DNA from: a virus
Length of the DNA stretch: 37,876 nt
Strand: one strand, 5' to 3'
Virus record (IMG/VR): IMGVR_UViG_3300047994_000092
Location: 1 to 37,876 of that record
Position numbers and translations under genes: made by a program. Below the pieces are notes generated by a model. That model saw only the letters and a program-made list of their open reading frames with translations, ran no database searches and was not told the DNA's origin. Shown piece after piece: positions 5,755 through 15,625 of this stretch (within the stretch, counting starts at the first letter, position 1; every line of letters begins with the position of its first letter).

Positions 5755-6113
5755 GGAAAGCGCTCCTCTTGGGAGTTAATCGGAAACATCAGTTTGCTGA
5801 AAAGATCCCGATCTTTTGGGGCGCGGAATAGGAATGTGCGAACAAGCCGGCTTGTTCGTCCATTGGTGTTTTGAAATTCAGACAGGCCACTCGCTTTCAA
5901 ACCCTTGGCAATTCTTGCCTCGGCTTGTGTACGTCCACCAATCTCGTACTCTTGCCAATAGAGAATCAGGAGGGGAATCTTTTTGAAATTCTTGTATCCC
6001 TCCAGCCCCTCGGTATTGCACAGCCATAGGATCTCGGACATAACAAGGTTTAATTCGCGCTCGCGCAAAATGGTGTGACGGCCACGCCCAATGCCTTTGA
6101 GCATTGGAATCAT
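5751..6113 (-). CDS. Hypothetical 120-aa protein in a low-GC island (moron-like)
   Basis: ATG at 6113 overlaps the RusA-like stop as ATGA. Visibly AT-richer than its flanks. Two perfect palindromes lie in its 3' third. Confidence 0.5.
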   Translation of the reverse strand: MIPMLKGIGRGRHTILRERELNLVMSEILWLCNTEGLEGYKNFKKIPLLILYWQEYEIGGRTQAEARIAKGLKASGLSEFQNTNGRTSRLVRTFLFRAPKDRDLFSKLMFPINSQEERFP

Positions 6114-10730: not shown

Positions 10731-11689
10731 GGGGCCATGTCCAGGGTCAAAGGGTCGTCAGGGGTCCGAGGCTCTAAAACGGGCTGTGAGCGTTTGCGGA
10801 GGGCTTCAGGTACCCAGGCCCTACCCACCCCCTGATCGTCGCTCTGGTGCCCGTTTAGAGGCCTTGCTGGGCCCTTCTCAAACCGAGACTTGGCCACGGT
10901 CAGCGCATAAGCGAAGCCAGCGCCGCGCGCCACCGCCTCGGCTGCGGCCATACCCAGGTCTTGAGTGGTGACGCCAGCGCGCAGCAGATCGTGGAGCAGC
11001 GGGTGGCCAGGCGAAACGTCGCTGACGCCGAGCCGTTTCATCGCCTTGCAGGCCGCACCGGCTTGGTGCGGGTCGATGGTCTCCACGGCTAAGGGTTTGC
11101 CCTCGCTCGGCCCTATATCTTTTTCATTTTGGCTAATGGTGTTTGGTATATCCGTCACTGTTGCGTCATTACTGACGTCACCAATGACGTCACGAGTAAC
11201 GTCACGCTGATGGGTTTCCAGGCCGTTCCATAGCTTTCGGATATGTGATGCCGTGGCATTTGCTGGGATGAGTACCCCAGCAGCTGAGATATCACTACGC
11301 ATTAACCCTAATCTCTGGATATAACGCTTCTGCCTGATCGCAGCAGGCGTCACGCCCAAAGCGTCACCGTGACGGTCAAGCGTCACTTTCGCGTCACTGT
11401 GACGGTCTAGTGACGCTATGACCTCATCACACCGCTGGTTATGGAATCCATCGGCTTCAGCACGAAAATATCTATCGAGGATCTCGCGCACCGCAGCCCT
11501 CTCGGCGCTGGGGCGATCACCCTCGCCGTCGCACCTGGCCAGCTTGTAGATCCTGGGCATGGATAACGGCAGGGGCTTTTCGTTGATGTAGTACCAGTCC
11601 ACCAGGCGCCTGTAAGCACCCTCCTCAAGCATGCTGAGATCGCCACACTTCTTGGCCCAATCGCCCAGGTGATGCGGGTAGTAGTTCAT
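10727..11689 (-). CDS. DUF1376 (YdaU-like) replication-associated protein
   Basis: N-terminus MNYYPHHLGDWAKKCGDLSMLEEGAYRRLVDWYY is characteristic of DUF1376. ATGA overlap with the Cro-like gene. Confidence 0.75.
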   Translation of the reverse strand: MNYYPHHLGDWAKKCGDLSMLEEGAYRRLVDWYYINEKPLPLSMPRIYKLARCDGEGDRPSAERAAVREILDRYFRAEADGFHNQRCDEVIASLDRHSDAKVTLDRHGDALGVTPAAIRQKRYIQRLGLMRSDISAAGVLIPANATASHIRKLWNGLETHQRDVTRDVIGDVSNDATVTDIPNTISQNEKDIGPSEGKPLAVETIDPHQAGAACKAMKRLGVSDVSPGHPLLHDLLRAGVTTQDLGMAAAEAVARGAGFAYALTVAKSRFEKGPARPLNGHQSDDQGVGRAWVPEALRKRSQPVLEPRTPDDPLTLDMAP

Positions 11690-11913
11690 AGCTCCACCGC
11701 GTCCTGCTCCAGGGGATCCAGGAACATGCCCAGGCTCCTCATGGCCTCGGCACGCTGTCTGACCCTGTGAGCCAGGATGCGATCGGCAACCGCTTGGGGA
11801 ACTGGATCAGGCCACTGATGCACCGCTTGCCTGCTGATGCCCAGCGTGCGGGCCGCGTTGCTGATCGTGCCGCCCAGGAAATAGATGGCTGTCTGCTTCT
11901 TCATCGGCCGCAT
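11686..11913 (-). CDS. Cro/YdaS-like HTH regulator (start 11913 or 11904)
   Basis: KKQTAIYFLGGTISNAARTLGISRQAVHQWPD is a typical Cro/YdaS HTH. First gene of the leftward early operon, next to the operator repeats. Confidence 0.7.
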   Translation of the reverse strand: MRPMKKQTAIYFLGGTISNAARTLGISRQAVHQWPDPVPQAVADRILAHRVRQRAEAMRSLGMFLDPLEQDAVEL

Positions 11914-11953
11914 GCTGTGCCTGCTCAAGGCCACATGCAAGCATCATCGGCGG

Positions 11954-11967
11954 CACATATCAGCACA
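11954..11967. promoter_or_regulatory. Operator copy CACATATCAGCACA (inverted orientation)
   Basis: Exact reverse complement of the 14-mer found twice at 12059-12082. Lies 41 nt upstream of the Cro-like start. Confidence 0.6.
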
Positions 11968-12058
11968 TGCCTTCACACTTGACCCCACCACATTAACCGA
12001 GCGGTTCACTGTGCTATTCATCCTCACCATCAGCATGGCCTTCAGCTGTTACGTGTGG

Positions 12059-12082
12059 TGTGCTGATATGTGCTGATATGTG
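12059..12082. promoter_or_regulatory. Two overlapping tandem operator copies TGTGCTGATATGTG (10-bp register)
   Basis: Exact copies at 12059-12072 and 12069-12082. A related half-site GAGATATCAGTG lies at 12085-12096. Confidence 0.6.
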
Positions 12083-12154
12083 GAGAGATATCAGTGTTCA
12101 TCAGTGATGTGGAGCGGTTGCGTGTGGTGCGGATTCAGTGTCTCATCCGCTCCC

Positions 12155-12520
12155 ATGCAACGCGAACCCGACAACCTGATGCTGACCGGCCTGGAGCGCG
12201 AGGACCGCCGTTTGACACGTGCCGCAGCGCTGGAGGACCAGGCCGCGCTGATGCTCAAGAACGAGTTTCTGACCGCGCTGATGAACCCGCTGCTGCGGAT
12301 CTCCACACCAGGTTATGGGCCCACTGAGCAGACTCAAGCGCTGGTGGATGTTGTGATCGATCTCAGCCTGTTCAAGGGCCAGCTGTTGGCCGATCTGCTG
12401 CACGCTGCTGCGGCTTGTGATGACCCTGCTGTGCTGGCTGCGCTGCGCGAGTTCGCTGTGAGCCATTCCGAGAATCACGTGAGCCTGATGGCCGCAGAAG
12501 GAGCGTTCCGTGAAGACTGA
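12155..12520 (+). CDS. Hypothetical protein, first gene of the rightward early operon (start uncertain: 12080, 12107 or 12155)
   Basis: ORF 12080..12520. Its first 25 codons overlap the operator repeats. No HTH recognised and no clear SD at any candidate start. Confidence 0.45.
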   Translation: MQREPDNLMLTGLEREDRRLTRAAALEDQAALMLKNEFLTALMNPLLRISTPGYGPTEQTQALVDVVIDLSLFKGQLLADLLHAAAACDDPAVLAALREFAVSHSENHVSLMAAEGAFRED

Positions 12521-12631
12521 TCTGACCCCCTTGCTCCTGGCCACCGGGGCCATGGAGGGCCCATACAAGCGTCTGCGCCCTGTTCAGAGCCATTGGCTGC
12601 GCCGCCTGCTGCGCTGGGCCTGGAGGCACTG

Positions 12632-13459
12632 ATGCAACCCGGCATCTATCACGACATTGCCAATGACACCTATCACAAGGGGCCAGGCTTGTCTAACTCA
12701 GGGCTTCAGCGGTTCCGCAAGACACCGTTCCATTTTCATGCCTTGGCCCAGCCCCGTGATCTGCCGGCCAAGGAGCCCAGCCCACAGATGAAGAACGGCA
12801 CCCGCGTTCACTGCGCGCTGCTTGAGCCCGACCAGTTCGATCTGCGCTACCAGGTGGGCCCTGCGGTCGAGAGCAAGCGCGAGAAGGTCTGGAAGGAGTT
12901 TGCGGCCTACTGTGAGCGCATGGGCGTGGAGCCCATCACCAAGGTGGAATATGACGCAGCCATGGGCCAGGCGGCCAGCCTGGCGGCGCTGCCCGAGGTG
13001 GCCGAACTGCTGGGCTATGAGGGCTATGCAGAGTCCTCGGTCTACTGGATCGATCCCGCCACCGGCGTGCTGTGCAAGTGCCGCCCTGATCGCCTGTGCA
13101 TGGTGGCCCATGGCAAGGCCACCATCCTGCTGGATGTGAAGACCACCGGCGATGCCACAGATAACGAATTCAGCAAGTCCATTGCCAATTACGGCTATCA
13201 CCATCAAGCAGCCTGGTACTGCGGCGGTGTCAGCCAGGCGCTGGGCATGCCATGCCACGGCATGCTGTTCGGCGTGGTCGAGTCCGAGTATCCGTATGCG
13301 GCCAGGCCGGTGATGCTTACCGATTCTGCGCTGACCCGTGGGCGTGATGAAAACACCATTGCACTGAAGCGTTATGCCGAGTGTGAATCCAGCGGCATCT
13401 GGCCAGGGTTTCCAGCCGGCATCGCGGTTCTCGATCTGCCCCATTGGGCTTACAGGTGA
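12632..13459 (+). CDS. PD-(D/E)XK (RecB/Cas4-like, exonuclease VIII-type) recombination exonuclease
   Basis: GGAGG lies 5 nt upstream of ATG 12632. Motifs MQPGIYHDI..DTYH, ILLDVKTTGD and YGYHHQAAWY are typical of this family. Partnered with recT. Confidence 0.8.
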   Translation: MQPGIYHDIANDTYHKGPGLSNSGLQRFRKTPFHFHALAQPRDLPAKEPSPQMKNGTRVHCALLEPDQFDLRYQVGPAVESKREKVWKEFAAYCERMGVEPITKVEYDAAMGQAASLAALPEVAELLGYEGYAESSVYWIDPATGVLCKCRPDRLCMVAHGKATILLDVKTTGDATDNEFSKSIANYGYHHQAAWYCGGVSQALGMPCHGMLFGVVESEYPYAARPVMLTDSALTRGRDENTIALKRYAECESSGIWPGFPAGIAVLDLPHWAYR

Positions 13460-13467
13460 TGTGCATA

Positions 13468-13602
13468 GGCCAGGTTCGGTGCGGTTGGGTCAGGCTCGGT
13501 TAGCCCCGGCGGGGTTTGGTGTGGTTTGGTAAGGCATGGCTAGGCGCGGTTGGGTTCGGTAGGGCCTGGCTGGGCAGGATGTGGTTAGGCAGGGTCAGGT
13601 TT
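13468..13602 (+). repeat. Pentamer-phased GGYNN array, block A (27 slots, 25 GGY)
   Basis: Hand alignment: ggcca ggttc ggtgc ggttg ggtca ggctc ggtta gcccc ggcgg ggttt ggtgt ggttt ggtaa ggcat ggcta ggcgc ggttg ggttc ggtag ggcct ggctg ggcag gatgt ggtta ggcag ggtca ggttt. Confidence 0.9.
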
Positions 13603-13621
13603 TGCTATGTGTGCCATAGCA
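13603..13621 (+). other. Hairpin/palindrome TGCTATG-tgtgc-CATAGCA separating the two pentamer blocks
   Basis: 7-bp perfect inverted repeat with a 5-nt loop, read directly. Confidence 0.8.
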
Positions 13622-13635
13622 CAACGTGATTCTGT

Positions 13636-13785
13636 GGTAAGGCCAGGTGAGGTTTGCTGTGGTTGGGCCTGCTCTGGTTTGGTGAGGTCTGGCCGGCTAA
13701 TGCGTGGCGCGGTGCGGCAGGCTATGGAGCGGCGATGTTCGGTGTGCAAGGGCCAGGTGCGGCATGCAGCGGTTAGGCATGGTTT
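13636..13785 (+). repeat. Pentamer-phased GGYNN array, block B (30 slots, 22 GG, 28 starting with G), register shifted by 3 nt relative to block A
   Basis: Hand alignment: ggtaa ggcca ggtga ggttt gctgt ggttg ggcct gctct ggttt ggtga ggtct ggccg gctaa tgcgt ggcgc ggtgc ggcag gctat ggagc ggcga tgttc ggtgt gcaag ggcca ggtgc ggcat gcagc ggtta ggcat ggttt. Confidence 0.85.
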
Positions 13786-13805
13786 CTTTAATCAACGAGG
13801 TCAAC

Positions 13806-14420
13806 ATGAATCAATCAATTGCGATCGGCGAAGTCTCCAACGGAGCCGATGAATCCATTGCGGCCTCAGAGCCGTATTCAGTTGCCGTGCGCCTTACAGG
13901 CAGCGCCGATCTCCTGTTCCATCGCTGGAATAACGAGGCTGTGGCGGCCAAGGCCGGCGCGGCCAAGAACAGCAAGACCAAGAAGACCGATAACGTCGAA
14001 AGCTATGTGTATCGCAACGAGGCCGGCATGATCTGCCTCCCTGGTGAATACCTGCGCGGTGCGATCGTGACGGCGGCCAAGTTCAGACAAGACCCGCGCA
14101 GTTCGCGCAAGTCGGCCATGGATCTCTATCGTGCTGGTGTGATCTCGATGACACCGCTGGCATCGCTGGGCCGCGACACATGGGATTACGAGGACTCGCG
14201 CCGTGTGGTGGTGCAGCGTGCCGGCATCACCCGCGTGAGGCCCGCGATGCGTCATGGCTGGAATGCCGAGTTTGTGCTGACAGTGCTGACACCCGAATAC
14301 ATCGCACCCACCGATCTGCACGCTGTCATGGCTCAGGCCGGCACCCTTATTGGCCTGGGTGATTTCAGGCCCACCTATGGCCGCTTCAATGTCACCAGCT
14401 TTGAGGTGATCAAGACATGA
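13806..14420 (+). CDS. Uncharacterised 204-aa protein between exonuclease and RecT (possible ssDNA/RNA-binding accessory)
   Basis: GAGG lies 5 nt upstream of ATG 13806. Its stop overlaps the recT ATG as ATGA. The tracked N-terminal extension from 13704 runs through the pentamer array and is rejected. Confidence 0.65.
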   Translation: MNQSIAIGEVSNGADESIAASEPYSVAVRLTGSADLLFHRWNNEAVAAKAGAAKNSKTKKTDNVESYVYRNEAGMICLPGEYLRGAIVTAAKFRQDPRSSRKSAMDLYRAGVISMTPLASLGRDTWDYEDSRRVVVQRAGITRVRPAMRHGWNAEFVLTVLTPEYIAPTDLHAVMAQAGTLIGLGDFRPTYGRFNVTSFEVIKT

Positions 14421-15328
14421 ATGATCTGACCCTCACCAAGACCCAGCCGCGCAATCAGTCCCTGATCGTGCGCTTCGCTGACCGCTATGGCATCCAGGCC
14501 AATCGCGTCATGGACACCCTCAAAGCCACCGCGTTCAAGACCGAGCGCCAGGTCAGCGATGAACAAATGATGGCCCTGCTGATCGTGGCCGAGCGCCACC
14601 AGCTGGATCCGTTCACGCGCGAAATCTTCGCCTTCCCTGACAAGAATGGCGGCATCACGCCGGTGGTCTCGGTGGATGGCTGGGCCCGCATCATCAACGA
14701 ACACCCGATGATGAATGGCATGGAGTTTGAATACGACGTTGATGATCGTTTCATCACCTGCGTGCTGTATCGCAAGGACCGTGATCACCCCATCCGCGTC
14801 ACCGAGTTCTTGATCGAGTGCAAGCGCAACACCGACCCATGGAACAAGAGCCCGAAGCGCATGCTGCGCCACAAGGCCCTGATCCAATGTGCCCGCCTGG
14901 CGTTCGGCTTTGCCGGCATCTACGATGAGGATGAGGCCGCGCGCATCAGGGACATGGGCCCCGTTGACCAGGTGCAGCCGCCCAGCGCCAGCGCTGACCG
15001 CGTGCGCGCCGTGCTGGCCAATGTGGAGGTGGTGCCTGGCCCTGCCGACGATCGCAGCGTGAGCGAGGATCCACCGCCGCCGCCACCCCAGGCAAGCACC
15101 GACCCCACCACCGGCGAGATCCTGGCCACCGGCGATGAGCAGCTGGATCAGCGCATCACCGACCCGGCCACGCTGGATAACCTGCTCCAGACCTACCAGG
15201 ATCTGCTGCTGGCCCAGGACAACGCCGACAGCGCCGCCATCGTCCTCGATGAAGCCCGCTCGATTCTCGATGATCAGCGCCAGGCCATCCTGGGCAATCT
15301 GTTCACCACCACCTGGCCCAAGGAGTAA
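14417..15328 (+). CDS. recT: RecT-family single-strand annealing recombinase
   Basis: RFADRYGIQANRVMDTLKATAF...QMMALLIVAERHQLDPFTREIFAFPDKNGGITPVVSVDGW is a canonical RecT core. Has an acidic/Pro-rich C-terminal tail. Confidence 0.9.
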   Translation: MNDLTLTKTQPRNQSLIVRFADRYGIQANRVMDTLKATAFKTERQVSDEQMMALLIVAERHQLDPFTREIFAFPDKNGGITPVVSVDGWARIINEHPMMNGMEFEYDVDDRFITCVLYRKDRDHPIRVTEFLIECKRNTDPWNKSPKRMLRHKALIQCARLAFGFAGIYDEDEAARIRDMGPVDQVQPPSASADRVRAVLANVEVVPGPADDRSVSEDPPPPPPQASTDPTTGEILATGDEQLDQRITDPATLDNLLQTYQDLLLAQDNADSAAIVLDEARSILDDQRQAILGNLFTTTWPKE

Positions 15329-15333
15329 GCCAA

Positions 15334-15561
15334 ATGACAAGCCGCGTTTACGTTGTCACCGATCGCTCAGAAGACCCGCCGCAGCATCGCCTGGTGCGCG
15401 CGTCGGGCCCCTCGGTGGCGCTCAATCACGTGGCCAGCCGCATGCTGGCCTCCCACCTGGCCCCCAAGGATGAATTGGTGCAGCTGCTGACCACCGGGGC
15501 CAGGGTGGAGGATGCGGGTGAGCAGGCCCAGGGTGAGCTTGAATTGCCGAGCAACACCTGA
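15334..15561 (+). CDS. Hypothetical 75-aa protein
   Basis: ORF 5 nt downstream of recT on the same strand. Confidence 0.45.
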   Translation: MTSRVYVVTDRSEDPPQHRLVRASGPSVALNHVASRMLASHLAPKDELVQLLTTGARVEDAGEQAQGELELPSNT

Positions 15562-15578
15562 CCCATTACCGGGCGCGC

Positions 15579-15625
15579 CAGGCTGGCACCTCCTCCTCCC
15601 TCCCTCAGCCAACTTTGCCAGCCTG
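15579..15625 (+). other. 10-bp perfect inverted repeat CAGGCTGGCA / TGCCAGCCTG enclosing a 27-nt CCUCC-rich loop
   Basis: Arms at 15579-15588 and 15616-15625. Loop is cctcctcctccctccctcagccaactt. Confidence 0.6.

What the first reader, a model, noticed from the sequence alone, without database searches (positions are those of the whole stretch)
13460..13805. Intergenic spacer made of about 57 phase-locked GGYNN pentamers in two blocks around a hairpin, inside the exonuclease-recT module
Seen directly:
- The whole 346-bp gap between the exonuclease stop (13459) and the next ATG (13806) has strict 5-nt periodicity.
- Block A (13468-13602) has 27 consecutive slots. 25 begin with GG and all 25 are GGY.
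- Block B (13636-13785) has 30 slots. 22 begin with GG (21 are GGY) and 28 begin with G.
- The blocks are separated by a 7-bp stem / 5-nt loop palindrome (13603-13621), and their registers differ by 3 nt.
- Block A is strongly strand-asymmetric by my hand count: about 47% G, 27% T, 17% C, 9% A.
- With GG expected at about 10% of slots, 25 of 27 cannot be chance.

What it is not:
- A period of 5 is incompatible with codon structure.
- No ORF of 60 aa or more covers block A. The ORFs over block B are Cys/Arg/Gly artefacts.
- It is not a CRISPR array, a set of ordinary iterons, or a tRNA.

Hypotheses (inference):
1. A landing pad on ssDNA or RNA for an oligomeric protein that reads one unit per 5 nt. 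TRAP binding (G/U)AG triplets spaced by 2-3 nt is a precedent. From memory only, RecT-family filaments contact about 5 nt per subunit, and recT lies 600 bp downstream.
2. A G-rich non-template strand forming R-loops or two-tetrad G2N3 quadruplexes. This would be formally analogous to the pentamer repeats of immunoglobulin switch regions, acting as a recombination or replication initiation hot spot.
3. A GT-rich Chi-like or RecA-preferred tract modulating host RecBCD.
4. A protein-sponge ncRNA.
Basis: partly seen in the sequence, partly recalled or inferred. Interest (0 to 1): 0.85.

Follow-up and report, generated by a model that had tools for sequence, protein, structure and literature searches.

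The report
Phage VIPR guide-RNA repeat array
The strange 5-base-periodic spacer is the guide-RNA array of a VIPR system, a CRISPR-like, phage-borne RNA-guided DNA-binding system first described in 2026 preprints, and the 204-aa gene next to it encodes the protein that reads the repeats one unit per subunit.

Summary
Window 13468-13602 holds 27 pentamer slots, 25 of them GGY. Window 13636-13785 holds 30 slots, 22 of them GG. No shuffle out of 20,000 reached the observed period-5 power.

It is not a RecT landing pad, a G-quadruplex tract or a Chi-like site. It is the vrRNA array of a VIPR (Viral Interference Programmable Repeat) system, described in bioRxiv 10.64898/2026.04.26.720920 and .720927.

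The adjacent 204-aa gene (13806-14420) is a Vipr homolog:
- BLASTP against the SUSP1 Vipr gives E=1e-13.
- The only significant PDB sequence hit is "SUSP1 Vipr protein".
- The residues that contact GGY in SUSP1 are conserved.
- The AlphaFold model matches Cas7/Csm3 RAMPs.

In 53 of 59 homologous loci from many phyla, GGYNN arrays flank the gene, almost always on its strand (130 arrays against 4). The NN positions are near random.

I reproduced the published "1-nt skip" targeting code within this clade. Arrays match exonuclease and helicase genes of sibling elements, with the skipped base at the codon wobble position.

I did not find a convincing target for this window's own arrays. The locus is a new member of a very recently described kind. 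It is unusual in lying between exo and recT and in having long arrays of 27 and 30 units.

The parts
13468..13602 (+). vrRNA repeat array A. It has 27 GGYNN units; units 8 (GCCCC) and 23 (GATGT) are degenerate. It probably holds more than one guide.
   Evidence: Searches give the counts and the period-5 power. Searches show homologous arrays beside Vipr homologs. The motif matches the published vrRNA consensus.
13589..13636 (+). Long imperfect hairpin that ends array A. Its core palindrome is 13603-13621. It is a candidate 3' cap or tail, or a processing site, between the two arrays.
   Evidence: free energy -24.9 kcal/mol, z-score -5.0. The close relative L082 has a hairpin of unrelated sequence at the same place (5850-5886, -34.1 kcal/mol, z-score -4.3). 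In the published system the vrRNA 3' tail is a structured cap.
13636..13785 (+). vrRNA repeat array B. It has 30 units: 22 GG, 6 GC and 2 TG, so it is more degenerate than array A. It ends 20 nt before the vipr start codon.
13786..13805 (+). Short leader with the ribosome-binding site GAGG (13797-13800) for vipr. It is partly conserved with L082.
13806..14420 (+). vipr gene. It encodes a 204-aa minimal RAMP (Vipr homolog) with the G-loop GLGDFRPTYGRF (residues 183-194).
   Evidence: BLASTP against SUSP1 Vipr, E=1e-13; conserved H39, E81, R145, D186, F187 and R188. AF2 model with pLDDT 80; top Foldseek hits are Csm3/Cas7; the only significant PDB sequence hit is 36pp 'SUSP1 Vipr protein', E=1.1e-10.
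12593..13459 (+). Upstream neighbour: a PD-(D/E)XK exonuclease (DUF3799 / exonuclease VIII-like). It is in the same operon. It is context and has not been shown to be part of the system.
14417..15328 (+). Downstream neighbour: RecT/Bet-type annealing protein. Its start overlaps the vipr stop (ATGA). It is context and has not been shown to be part of the system.
   Evidence: One search shows the same overlap in L082.

Best explanation
The 346-bp spacer plus the 204-aa gene form a VIPR system carried in the early operon of a temperate phage.

Proposed mechanism:
- The spacer is transcribed with the operon. This is inferred; no separate promoter or terminator was found.
- Vipr protomers polymerise on the RNA, one per GGYNN unit. 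This is inferred by homology.
- Each protomer buries the GGY bases, using His39, Arg145, Asp186, Phe187 and Arg188. It leaves the two variable bases exposed.
- The string of NN dinucleotides acts as a non-contiguous guide. It pairs with double-stranded DNA whose sequence reads NNx-NNx-NNx, where the skipped base is usually the codon wobble position.
- The filament binds the target and blocks its transcription. This step was shown experimentally for the SUSP1 system, not here.
- The likely targets are genes of competing phages or prophages in the same host.
- The hairpin at 13589-13636 probably caps the first array or separates it from the second.

The two arrays have 27 and 30 units, against a family median of 14, so each probably holds more than one guide.
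For: Shown here:
1. The periodic GGYNN pattern is real and far beyond chance.
2. The 204-aa protein is homologous to the experimentally characterised SUSP1 Vipr. BLASTP gives E=1e-13. The family profile's only significant PDB sequence match is 'SUSP1 Vipr protein', E=1.1e-10. The SUSP1 locus L080 has GGYNN arrays on both sides of the gene, as published.
3. The SUSP1 residues reported to contact GGY are H17, E71, R138, D177, W178 and R179. They align with H39, E81, R145, D186, F187 and R188. All are invariant in the alignment except W/F.
4. The AF2 model has pLDDT 80. Its best PDB structural matches are Csm3/Cas7 of type III-A, Cas7 of type VII, and Cas7-11 (E about 1e-6, TM about 0.5).
5. Among 59 homologous loci with both flanks present, 53 carry a GG period-5 array next to the gene. 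There are 130 arrays on the gene's strand against 4 on the other. The median is 14 units. Position 3 is 90% pyrimidine, and positions 4-5 are near uniform.
6. The closest relative (L082, Vipr 90% identical) has the same order: exo, array, hairpin, array, vipr, recT. Its NN identity to the window is 35-39%, its GG identity 70-87%, and its coding DNA identity 74%.
7. The 1-nt skip code holds in this clade. Nine of 129 arrays reach 8-11 consecutive matching units against sibling loci with skip 1. None exceeds 7 with skip 0, skip 2 or shuffled units.
8. Those matches lie in exonuclease and helicase genes, with NN at codon positions 1-2.

From the literature: vrRNAs co-purify with Vipr, one protomer binds per repeat, and targeting silences transcription and can be reprogrammed.
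Against: - No convincing target was found for the window's own two arrays. There is no self-target.
- Eight IMG/VR scans and one metagenome scan gave only chance-level seed hits, with one borderline exception. Units 6-18 of array A match 12 of 13 units in a 684-aa ORF of two 40%-GC viral contigs. That could be chance given the A+T-rich pattern, and these contigs differ greatly in G+C from the 63%-GC window.
- Array B is degenerate, with 8 of 30 units not GG, and may be partly decayed.
- Arrays of 27 and 30 contiguous units exceed the 9-16 repeats reported per vrRNA, and I cannot place the RNA ends.
- No homolog of the published accessory gene vap1 is present.
- Transcription, processing and Vipr binding were not tested and cannot be tested with these tools.
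Confidence: 0.9

Rival explanations
1. The array just upstream of vipr (array B) is mainly an autoregulatory leader rather than a guide. Vipr would coat its own mRNA up to the ribosome-binding site and so limit translation of vipr and of the translationally coupled recT. This could hold in addition to the guide function of array A.
For: - Array B ends 20 nt before the ATG and 11 nt before the GAGG site.
- It has no structured 3' cap (z-score -0.4 for 13776-13810).
- It is more degenerate than array A.
- Upstream arrays that end close to the start codon are common in the family.
Against: - In SUSP1 the upstream vrRNA1 is a genuine guide.
- Upstream arrays of relatives have real targets. For example, L029 3904-3978 lies just upstream of its vipr and matches exo genes of other loci.
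- There is no direct evidence for autoregulation.
Confidence: 0.2
2. The tract acts at the DNA level. Its G-rich non-template strand would form G2N3 quadruplexes or R-loops and serve as a recombination or replication hot spot for the flanking exo/RecT module. These are the first reader's hypotheses 2 and 3.
For: - The strand is 42-47% G, with GG every 5 nt.
- It lies between exo and recT.
Against: - The same arrays flank Vipr homologs that have no RecT or exo next to them. Only 1 of 86 loci has a RecT homolog and 7 have an exo homolog. Other neighbours are RusA with a helicase, KTSC, ERF or YqaJ.
- The arrays track the vipr strand, 130 against 4.
- Position 3 is constrained to pyrimidine, which a G-quadruplex does not need.
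- The NN positions match coding sequences of other elements under a 1-nt skip rule. A structural DNA element would not show this.
Confidence: 0.03
3. The repeats are a binding track for RecT filaments at about 5 nt per subunit.
For: recT lies about 600 bp downstream, and its start overlaps the vipr stop.
Against: - The arrays co-occur with the 204-aa protein family, not with RecT.
- That family has the residues known to grip GGY.
- Vipr loci with ERF or with no annealing protein have the same arrays.
Confidence: 0.02

Closest known systems
VIPR systems (Vipr protein plus vrRNA), type II exemplars from Escherichia phage SUSP1 and a Pseudomonas fulva prophage (bioRxiv 10.64898/2026.04.26.720920 and 10.64898/2026.04.26.720927)
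   Same: - A homologous protein of about 20 kDa with a RAMP fold and conserved GGY-contact residues.
- GGY/NN pentamer arrays on the gene's strand in the flanking intergenic DNA.
- NN positions that are hypervariable between close relatives.
- A phage or prophage setting.
- The 1-nt skip / wobble targeting rule, reproduced in this protein's clade.
   Different: - Only 27-29% identity to SUSP1 Vipr, so probably another of the seven types, which I could not assign.
- Arrays of 27 and 30 contiguous units instead of separate vrRNAs of about 100 nt with 9-16 repeats, each with its own leader.
- The 3' element is a plain long hairpin after array A, not the SUSP1 pseudoknot tail. No structured tail follows array B.
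- No vap1 homolog.
- The cassette lies between an exonuclease and recT, with a vipr/recT start-stop overlap.
Class 1 CRISPR effector backbones (Cas7/Csm3/Cmr4 filaments on crRNA)
   Same: - RRM-based RAMP fold, glycine-rich loop and thumb.
- Protomers polymerise along a guide RNA at a fixed step and flip out bases at regular intervals.
   Different: - The step is 5 nt with three bases sequestered and two pairing, against 6 nt with five pairing.
- There are no CRISPR repeats, no Cas1/Cas2 adaptation genes and no Cas6.
- The guide is a degenerate tandem repeat, not a spacer between repeats.
- No CRISPR array or cas gene is evident around the locus.
TRAP (trp RNA-binding attenuation protein) binding to (G/U)AG repeats
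   Same: An oligomeric protein reads a short conserved motif that recurs every few nucleotides on RNA.
   Different: - The fold is unrelated.
- TRAP is a closed 11-mer ring that regulates one operon.
- The spacers between TRAP triplets carry no guide information.

Membership tests
VIPR system | A Vipr protein homologous to the characterised SUSP1 Vipr | tested here: met
   BLASTP gives E=1e-13 and 29% identity over 156 columns. tblastn hits SUSP1 at the vipr CDS. The family profile's only significant PDB sequence hit is 36pp_D 'SUSP1 Vipr protein', E=1.1e-10.
VIPR system | Minimal RAMP fold with an RRM core, a glycine-rich loop and a thumb | tested here: met
   The AF2 model has pLDDT 80.2 and pTM 0.75. 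The top 50 Foldseek PDB hits shown are all CRISPR RAMP-containing effector chains such as Csm3/Cas7 and Cas7-11 (E down to 1.6e-6, TM about 0.5). The G-loop GLGDFRPTYGRF lies between the last helix and the last strand. The putative thumb hairpin (about residues 128-148) is modelled with low confidence.
VIPR system | Conserved residues that recognise G1, G2 and Y3 of each repeat (SUSP1 H17, R138, D177, W178, R179, E71) | tested here: met
   These align to H39, R145, D186, F187 (aromatic retained), R188 and E81. SUSP1 K33, the skip-base backbone contact, aligns to A52 and is not conserved in this alignment. K54 is invariant in the family and lies nearby.
VIPR system | Tandem GGY/NN (YNNGG) pentamer repeats in the intergenic DNA flanking vipr, on its strand | tested here: met
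   The window has 27 and 30 units immediately upstream. The family shows them in 53 of 59 loci, with 130 arrays on the gene's strand against 4 on the other.
VIPR system | NN positions hypervariable while GGY is conserved between close relatives | tested here: met
   Window against L082 (Vipr 90% identical): NN identity 35-39%, GG identity 70-87%, coding DNA identity 74%. The pooled NN composition is near uniform.
VIPR system | Each vrRNA has 9-16 repeats followed by a structured, conserved 3' tail | tested here: inconclusive
   The arrays here are 27 and 30 units, against a family median of 14. A hairpin follows array A and is conserved as a structure in L082. No structure follows array B. RNA ends are unknown. 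The paper also reports other layouts, such as staggered and ribozyme-separated arrays. No hammerhead was found here.
VIPR system | NN string matches natural DNA targets under the 1-nt skip rule, with the skipped base at the wobble position | tested here: inconclusive
   This is met for the clade: 9 of 129 arrays score 8 or more with skip 1, and none do in three controls. The targets are in exo and helicase genes with NN at codon positions 1-2. It is not established for the window's own arrays. Only one borderline candidate was found, L087/L089 with 12 of 13 units.
VIPR system | An accessory vap gene next to vipr | tested here: inconclusive
   No homolog of SUSP1 vap1 was found in the window or in 86 related loci. 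The immediate neighbours here are an exonuclease and RecT. Relatives have RusA with an SF2 helicase, or a KTSC protein. I could not obtain the published vap1-6 definitions.
VIPR system | The repeat tract is expressed as a small RNA that co-purifies with Vipr and directs DNA binding or silencing | not testable with these tools
   This needs small-RNA sequencing, pull-down and reporter assays.
CRISPR-Cas (Class 1) | A CRISPR repeat-spacer array and cas genes (Cas1/2, Cas5/6/7 set) | tested here: not met
   The repeat finder shows no CRISPR-like array. The neighbours are phage recombination and regulatory genes. There is no PADLOC hit.

The most novel reading that the evidence does not exclude
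In this sub-clade, VIPR may be functionally wired into the phage's Red-like recombination module. The exo gene, the vrRNA arrays, vipr and recT form one operon, and the vipr stop overlaps the recT start. The close relative L082 has the same layout. Unrelated exonucleases (DUF3799 or YqaJ) sit directly upstream of the array in other loci, and sibling arrays target exo genes.

Under this reading, exo and RecT would act as a new class of accessory ('vap') proteins. The R-loop or triplex that Vipr-vrRNA opens on a competitor's DNA would become an entry point for exonuclease- and RecT-driven degradation or recombination. That would be RNA-guided recombination rather than plain silencing.
Probability: 0.07. 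Interest if true: 0.85.

Novelty: new member of a known kind. Interest (0 to 1): 0.45.

Why it matters
VIPR is a newly reported kind of RNA-guided DNA recognition, proposed to predate CRISPR. This locus matters in three ways.

- The pattern can be found from raw sequence alone.
- This Vipr clade is large and widespread. It has 6,266 database relatives, about 60% identical across many bacterial phyla.
- Its arrays obey the published 1-nt skip / wobble code. This is an independent computational confirmation on systems the authors did not test experimentally.

For annotation, homologs are currently labelled "hypothetical", "restriction endonuclease" or "HTH regulator", and the public gene call for this protein runs into the array.

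The position between exo and recT, and the long uninterrupted arrays, are worth a specialist's look. They do not change the basic reading.

Tried and rejected
- **Rfam.** The whole window at gathering thresholds and 13380-13900 at permissive E-values gave no family and no hammerhead ribozyme.
- **Protein family libraries.** Pfam and PADLOC found nothing for the 204-aa protein. PHROGs gave only phrog_4652, of unknown function.
- **Promoter and terminator scan of 11600-15600.** No sigma-70-like promoter was found, and no terminator near the arrays. I therefore assume co-transcription with the operon.
- **Self-targeting.** The window's NN strings were tested against the window and 86 loci at skips 0-3. 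Nothing exceeded shuffled controls.
- **Target search in public collections.** I used all eight IMG/VR scans and the single metagenome scan, with seeds of 9-14 units under the 1-nt skip rule.
  - Array B seeds gave eight hits, and none extended beyond the seed.
  - One array A seed extended to 12 of 13 units in a 684-aa ORF (peptide DQAYILNTNPxYD, skip at the wobble position) on two related 40%-GC contigs.
  - I do not accept this as a target. The pattern is A+T-rich, so chance matches in A+T-rich phages are not rare by my rough estimate. The contigs differ by 23 points in G+C from the window. The ORF has no match in GenBank phages or PHROGs. The window has no homolog of it.
- **Accessory gene.** vap1 of SUSP1, the 147-aa gene after vipr in phage DSL-LC04, and the KTSC gene of Burkholderia prophages have no homolog in the window.
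- **VIPR type.** I could not assign the locus to one of the seven published types. The figures and data tables are not held.
- **Rejected readings.** I rejected a coding repeat, because a period of 5 is incompatible with codons and there are stops in all frames. I also rejected a CRISPR array, iterons, a G-quadruplex or R-loop hot spot, a Chi-like tract and a RecT track. Reasons are given under the rival explanations.

Full report
**1.

The exonuclease ORF ends at 13459 and the next gene starts at ATG 13806. I cut 13468-13602 into pentamers. This gives 27 slots, of which 25 begin GG, and all 25 are GGY. Cutting 13636-13785 gives 30 slots: 22 GG, 21 GGY, and 28 beginning with G.

Positions 4 and 5 of the units show no preference.

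The Fourier power of GG positions at period 5 is 22.6 and 21.3 for the two blocks, against about 1 or less at every other period tested. None of 20,000 shuffles of either block exceeded 9.6. A sliding scan of the whole window on both strands found nothing comparable elsewhere.

The palindrome at 13603-13621 is real. It is the tip of a longer imperfect hairpin, 13589-13636, with a free energy of -24.9 kcal/mol and a z-score of -5.0. Its 5' arm consists of the last three repeats of block A.

**2. The neighbours**

- The upstream gene is a PD-(D/E)XK exonuclease (DUF3799; PHROG exonuclease VIII).
- The gene two positions downstream is a RecT/Bet annealing protein.
- The 204-aa gene between them (13806-14420) has no Pfam or PADLOC match. 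Its only hit is a PHROG of unknown function.
- Its stop overlaps the recT start.
- The wider context is the early operon of a temperate phage. A Cro-like repressor gene is transcribed divergently. An AlpA-like gene and a tyrosine integrase lie downstream.

**3. The key association**

The 204-aa protein has 6,266 database relatives. Many are about 60-70% identical although they are attributed to very different phyla.

A scan of one genome per species returned 79 loci. In nearly all of them the strongest period-5 GG signal lies immediately upstream or downstream of the homolog, on the same strand.

- Of 59 loci with both flanks present, 53 have at least one array beside the gene.
- There are 130 arrays on the gene's strand and 4 on the other.
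- 124 of the 130 are adjacent to the gene.
- The median array is 14 units and the longest is 138 consecutive units (L059 4579-5268).
- Pooled over 2,250 units, position 1 is 98% G, position 2 is 91% G, and position 3 is 90% pyrimidine. Positions 4-5 are close to uniform.

The pattern, not the sequence, is what is conserved, and it belongs to this protein family rather than to exo or RecT. Homologs of the window's RecT and exo occur in only 1 and 7 of 86 loci. Other neighbours are:

- RusA plus an SF2 helicase in about 22-25 loci;
- a KTSC-domain protein in Burkholderia pseudomallei prophages;
- ERF, NinB or YqaJ elsewhere.

**4. What it is**

A full-text search found two 2026 preprints from one laboratory that describe exactly this.

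VIPR (Viral Interference Programmable Repeat) systems consist of two parts. One is a minimal RAMP protein of about 20 kDa, called Vipr. The other is a set of vrRNAs made of 9-16 YNNGG repeats, in which GGY is conserved and NN is hypervariable, followed by a structured 3' tail.

One Vipr protomer binds each repeat and sequesters GGY. The exposed NN dinucleotides pair with double-stranded DNA that reads NNx-NNx, where the skipped base usually falls on the codon wobble position. Binding silences transcription. Natural targets are competing phages, prophages and satellites.

**5. Membership tests run here**

- **Sequence homology.** The window protein hits the SUSP1 genome at the gene flanked by long intergenic regions. 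Those regions contain GGYNN arrays, and the residue numbering of that protein matches the structure paper. Pairwise BLASTP gives E=1e-13.
- **Solved structures.** A profile of the window's family, searched against all PDB sequences, finds one significant hit: 36pp 'SUSP1 Vipr protein', E=1.1e-10.
- **GGY-contact residues.** SUSP1 H17, E71, R138, D177, W178 and R179 align with H39, E81, R145, D186, F187 and R188.
- **Fold.** An AlphaFold2 model (pLDDT 80) has its best PDB matches in Csm3/Cas7 of type III-A, Cas7 of type VII, and Cas7-11.
- **Hypervariable NN.** The closest relative with context (L082, Vipr 90% identical) has the same order: exo, array, hairpin, array, vipr, recT. Its NN positions are only 35-39% identical to the window's, against 70-87% for GG and 74% for the coding DNA. 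Its hairpin is unrelated in sequence but similar in shape.

**6. An independent test of the targeting code**

I took 129 distinct arrays from the related loci and scanned them against all those loci.

With one skipped base per unit, nine arrays reached runs scoring 8-11 units. With zero or two skipped bases, or with the unit order shuffled, none exceeded 7.

The hits make biological sense.

- The array just upstream of vipr in L029 matches the DUF3799-type exonuclease gene of other loci (confirmed in L003, L048 and L076) at the peptide EPFRCGVWR. Its matches in L005 and L072 were not tied to a gene.
- The downstream arrays of L009, L011, L021 and L024 match the Walker A segment (PTGGGKTPV) of the helicase in L019, L003 and L072.
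- The arrays of L022 and L031 match the antisense strand of the helicase at KDLGYAVT in ten loci.

In each case checked, NN falls on codon positions 1-2 and the skipped base on the wobble position. A motif search did not find this Walker A segment in the guide-bearing loci checked (L021, L009, L024).

**7. What remains open for this window**

I found no convincing target for its own arrays. There was no self-target. Seeds from array B in IMG/VR did not extend.

One seed from array A extended to 12 of 13 units, with the mismatch at the degenerate unit 8. The match lies in a 684-aa ORF of two related 40%-GC contigs, with the skip at the wobble position. I treat this as unproven, because the pattern is A+T-rich and the G+C contents differ by 23 points. 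In addition, the ORF is unannotated.

I cannot place the RNA ends, say how many guides the 27- and 30-unit arrays hold, or assign one of the seven published types. No vap1 homolog is present.

Array B is more degenerate and runs almost to the ribosome-binding site, so an autoregulatory role is possible.

**8. Verdict**

Its first hypothesis was right in kind: an oligomeric protein reads one unit per 5 nt on RNA. It named the wrong protein and missed the guide function. Its DNA-structure hypotheses are not supported.

The locus is a new member of a kind described only months ago. Three features deserve follow-up: the insertion between exo and recT, the vipr/recT translational coupling, and the long uninterrupted arrays. 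The evidence does not show that they change the mechanism.

Noticed in passing
L029 3904-3978; L009 5029-5133; L011 1352-1466; L021 5029-5133; L024 5030-5134; L022 5070-5174; L031 1311-1410; L054 2446-2535 and 3849-3923: [quoted passage not shown] In every case checked the skipped base falls on the wobble position. Controls with skip 0, skip 2 and shuffled units gave no such hits.
   Followed up: yes
L059 4579-5268; L061 4631-5407: Two loci have very long arrays. L059 has 138 consecutive GGYNN units. L061 has 117 units, followed by two 19-unit arrays, each offset by a single inserted base (5216 and 5312). This may correspond to the 'staggered arrays' mentioned in the preprint.
   Followed up: partly
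L037 3323-3853 (minus strand): This is the only locus with large arrays on the strand opposite to vipr. About 100 units lie upstream in four phase-shifted blocks. It also has normal same-strand arrays downstream.
   Followed up: no
window 13764-14420 (public gene call P0001, 218 aa): The deposited gene call starts at GTG 13764, inside array B. Homologs are 201-204 aa and begin MN..., and a GAGG site lies at 13797-13800. Both favour ATG 13806 as the true start.
   Followed up: partly
L081 4977-5594 (phage DSL-LC04, OR003939.1); P0016 (Burkholderia pseudomallei): Vipr homologs are annotated in public records as 'helix-turn-helix transcriptional regulator' and 'Restriction endonuclease'. Both names look wrong.
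   Followed up: no
L003 4621-7028 and about 22-25 other loci: A RusA-family resolvase and an SF2 helicase of about 600 aa with a zinc ribbon follow vipr in many loci, mostly from Phycisphaerae. Arrays lie between the genes. These may be the nuclease and helicase accessory genes of another VIPR type, or simply phage replication genes.
   Followed up: partly
array 3' ends in 123 distinct arrays, including window 13776-13790 and 13593-13607: Array ends are not random. The penultimate unit is GGCA[AT] in 31 of 123 arrays, against 267 of 2,320 units overall. The last unit is often GGTTT, followed by T-rich sequence. Both window arrays end in GGTTT. This may be part of a conserved 3' handle.
   Followed up: partly
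L083-L086 about 5890-5915; L032 about 1860-1880: A conserved short hairpin motif (CAGTGC-GGTGCGAATA-GCACTG) lies just upstream of the vipr-proximal array in Burkholderia pseudomallei prophages and in an unrelated Burkholderiales contig. It may be a 5' handle or a processing site.
   Followed up: no
L087 1629-1666 and L089 4342-4379: There is a borderline candidate target for units 6-18 of the window's array A. It lies in a 684-aa ORF with no known family, at the peptide DQAYILNTNPxYD, on two related 40%-GC viral contigs.
   Followed up: yes
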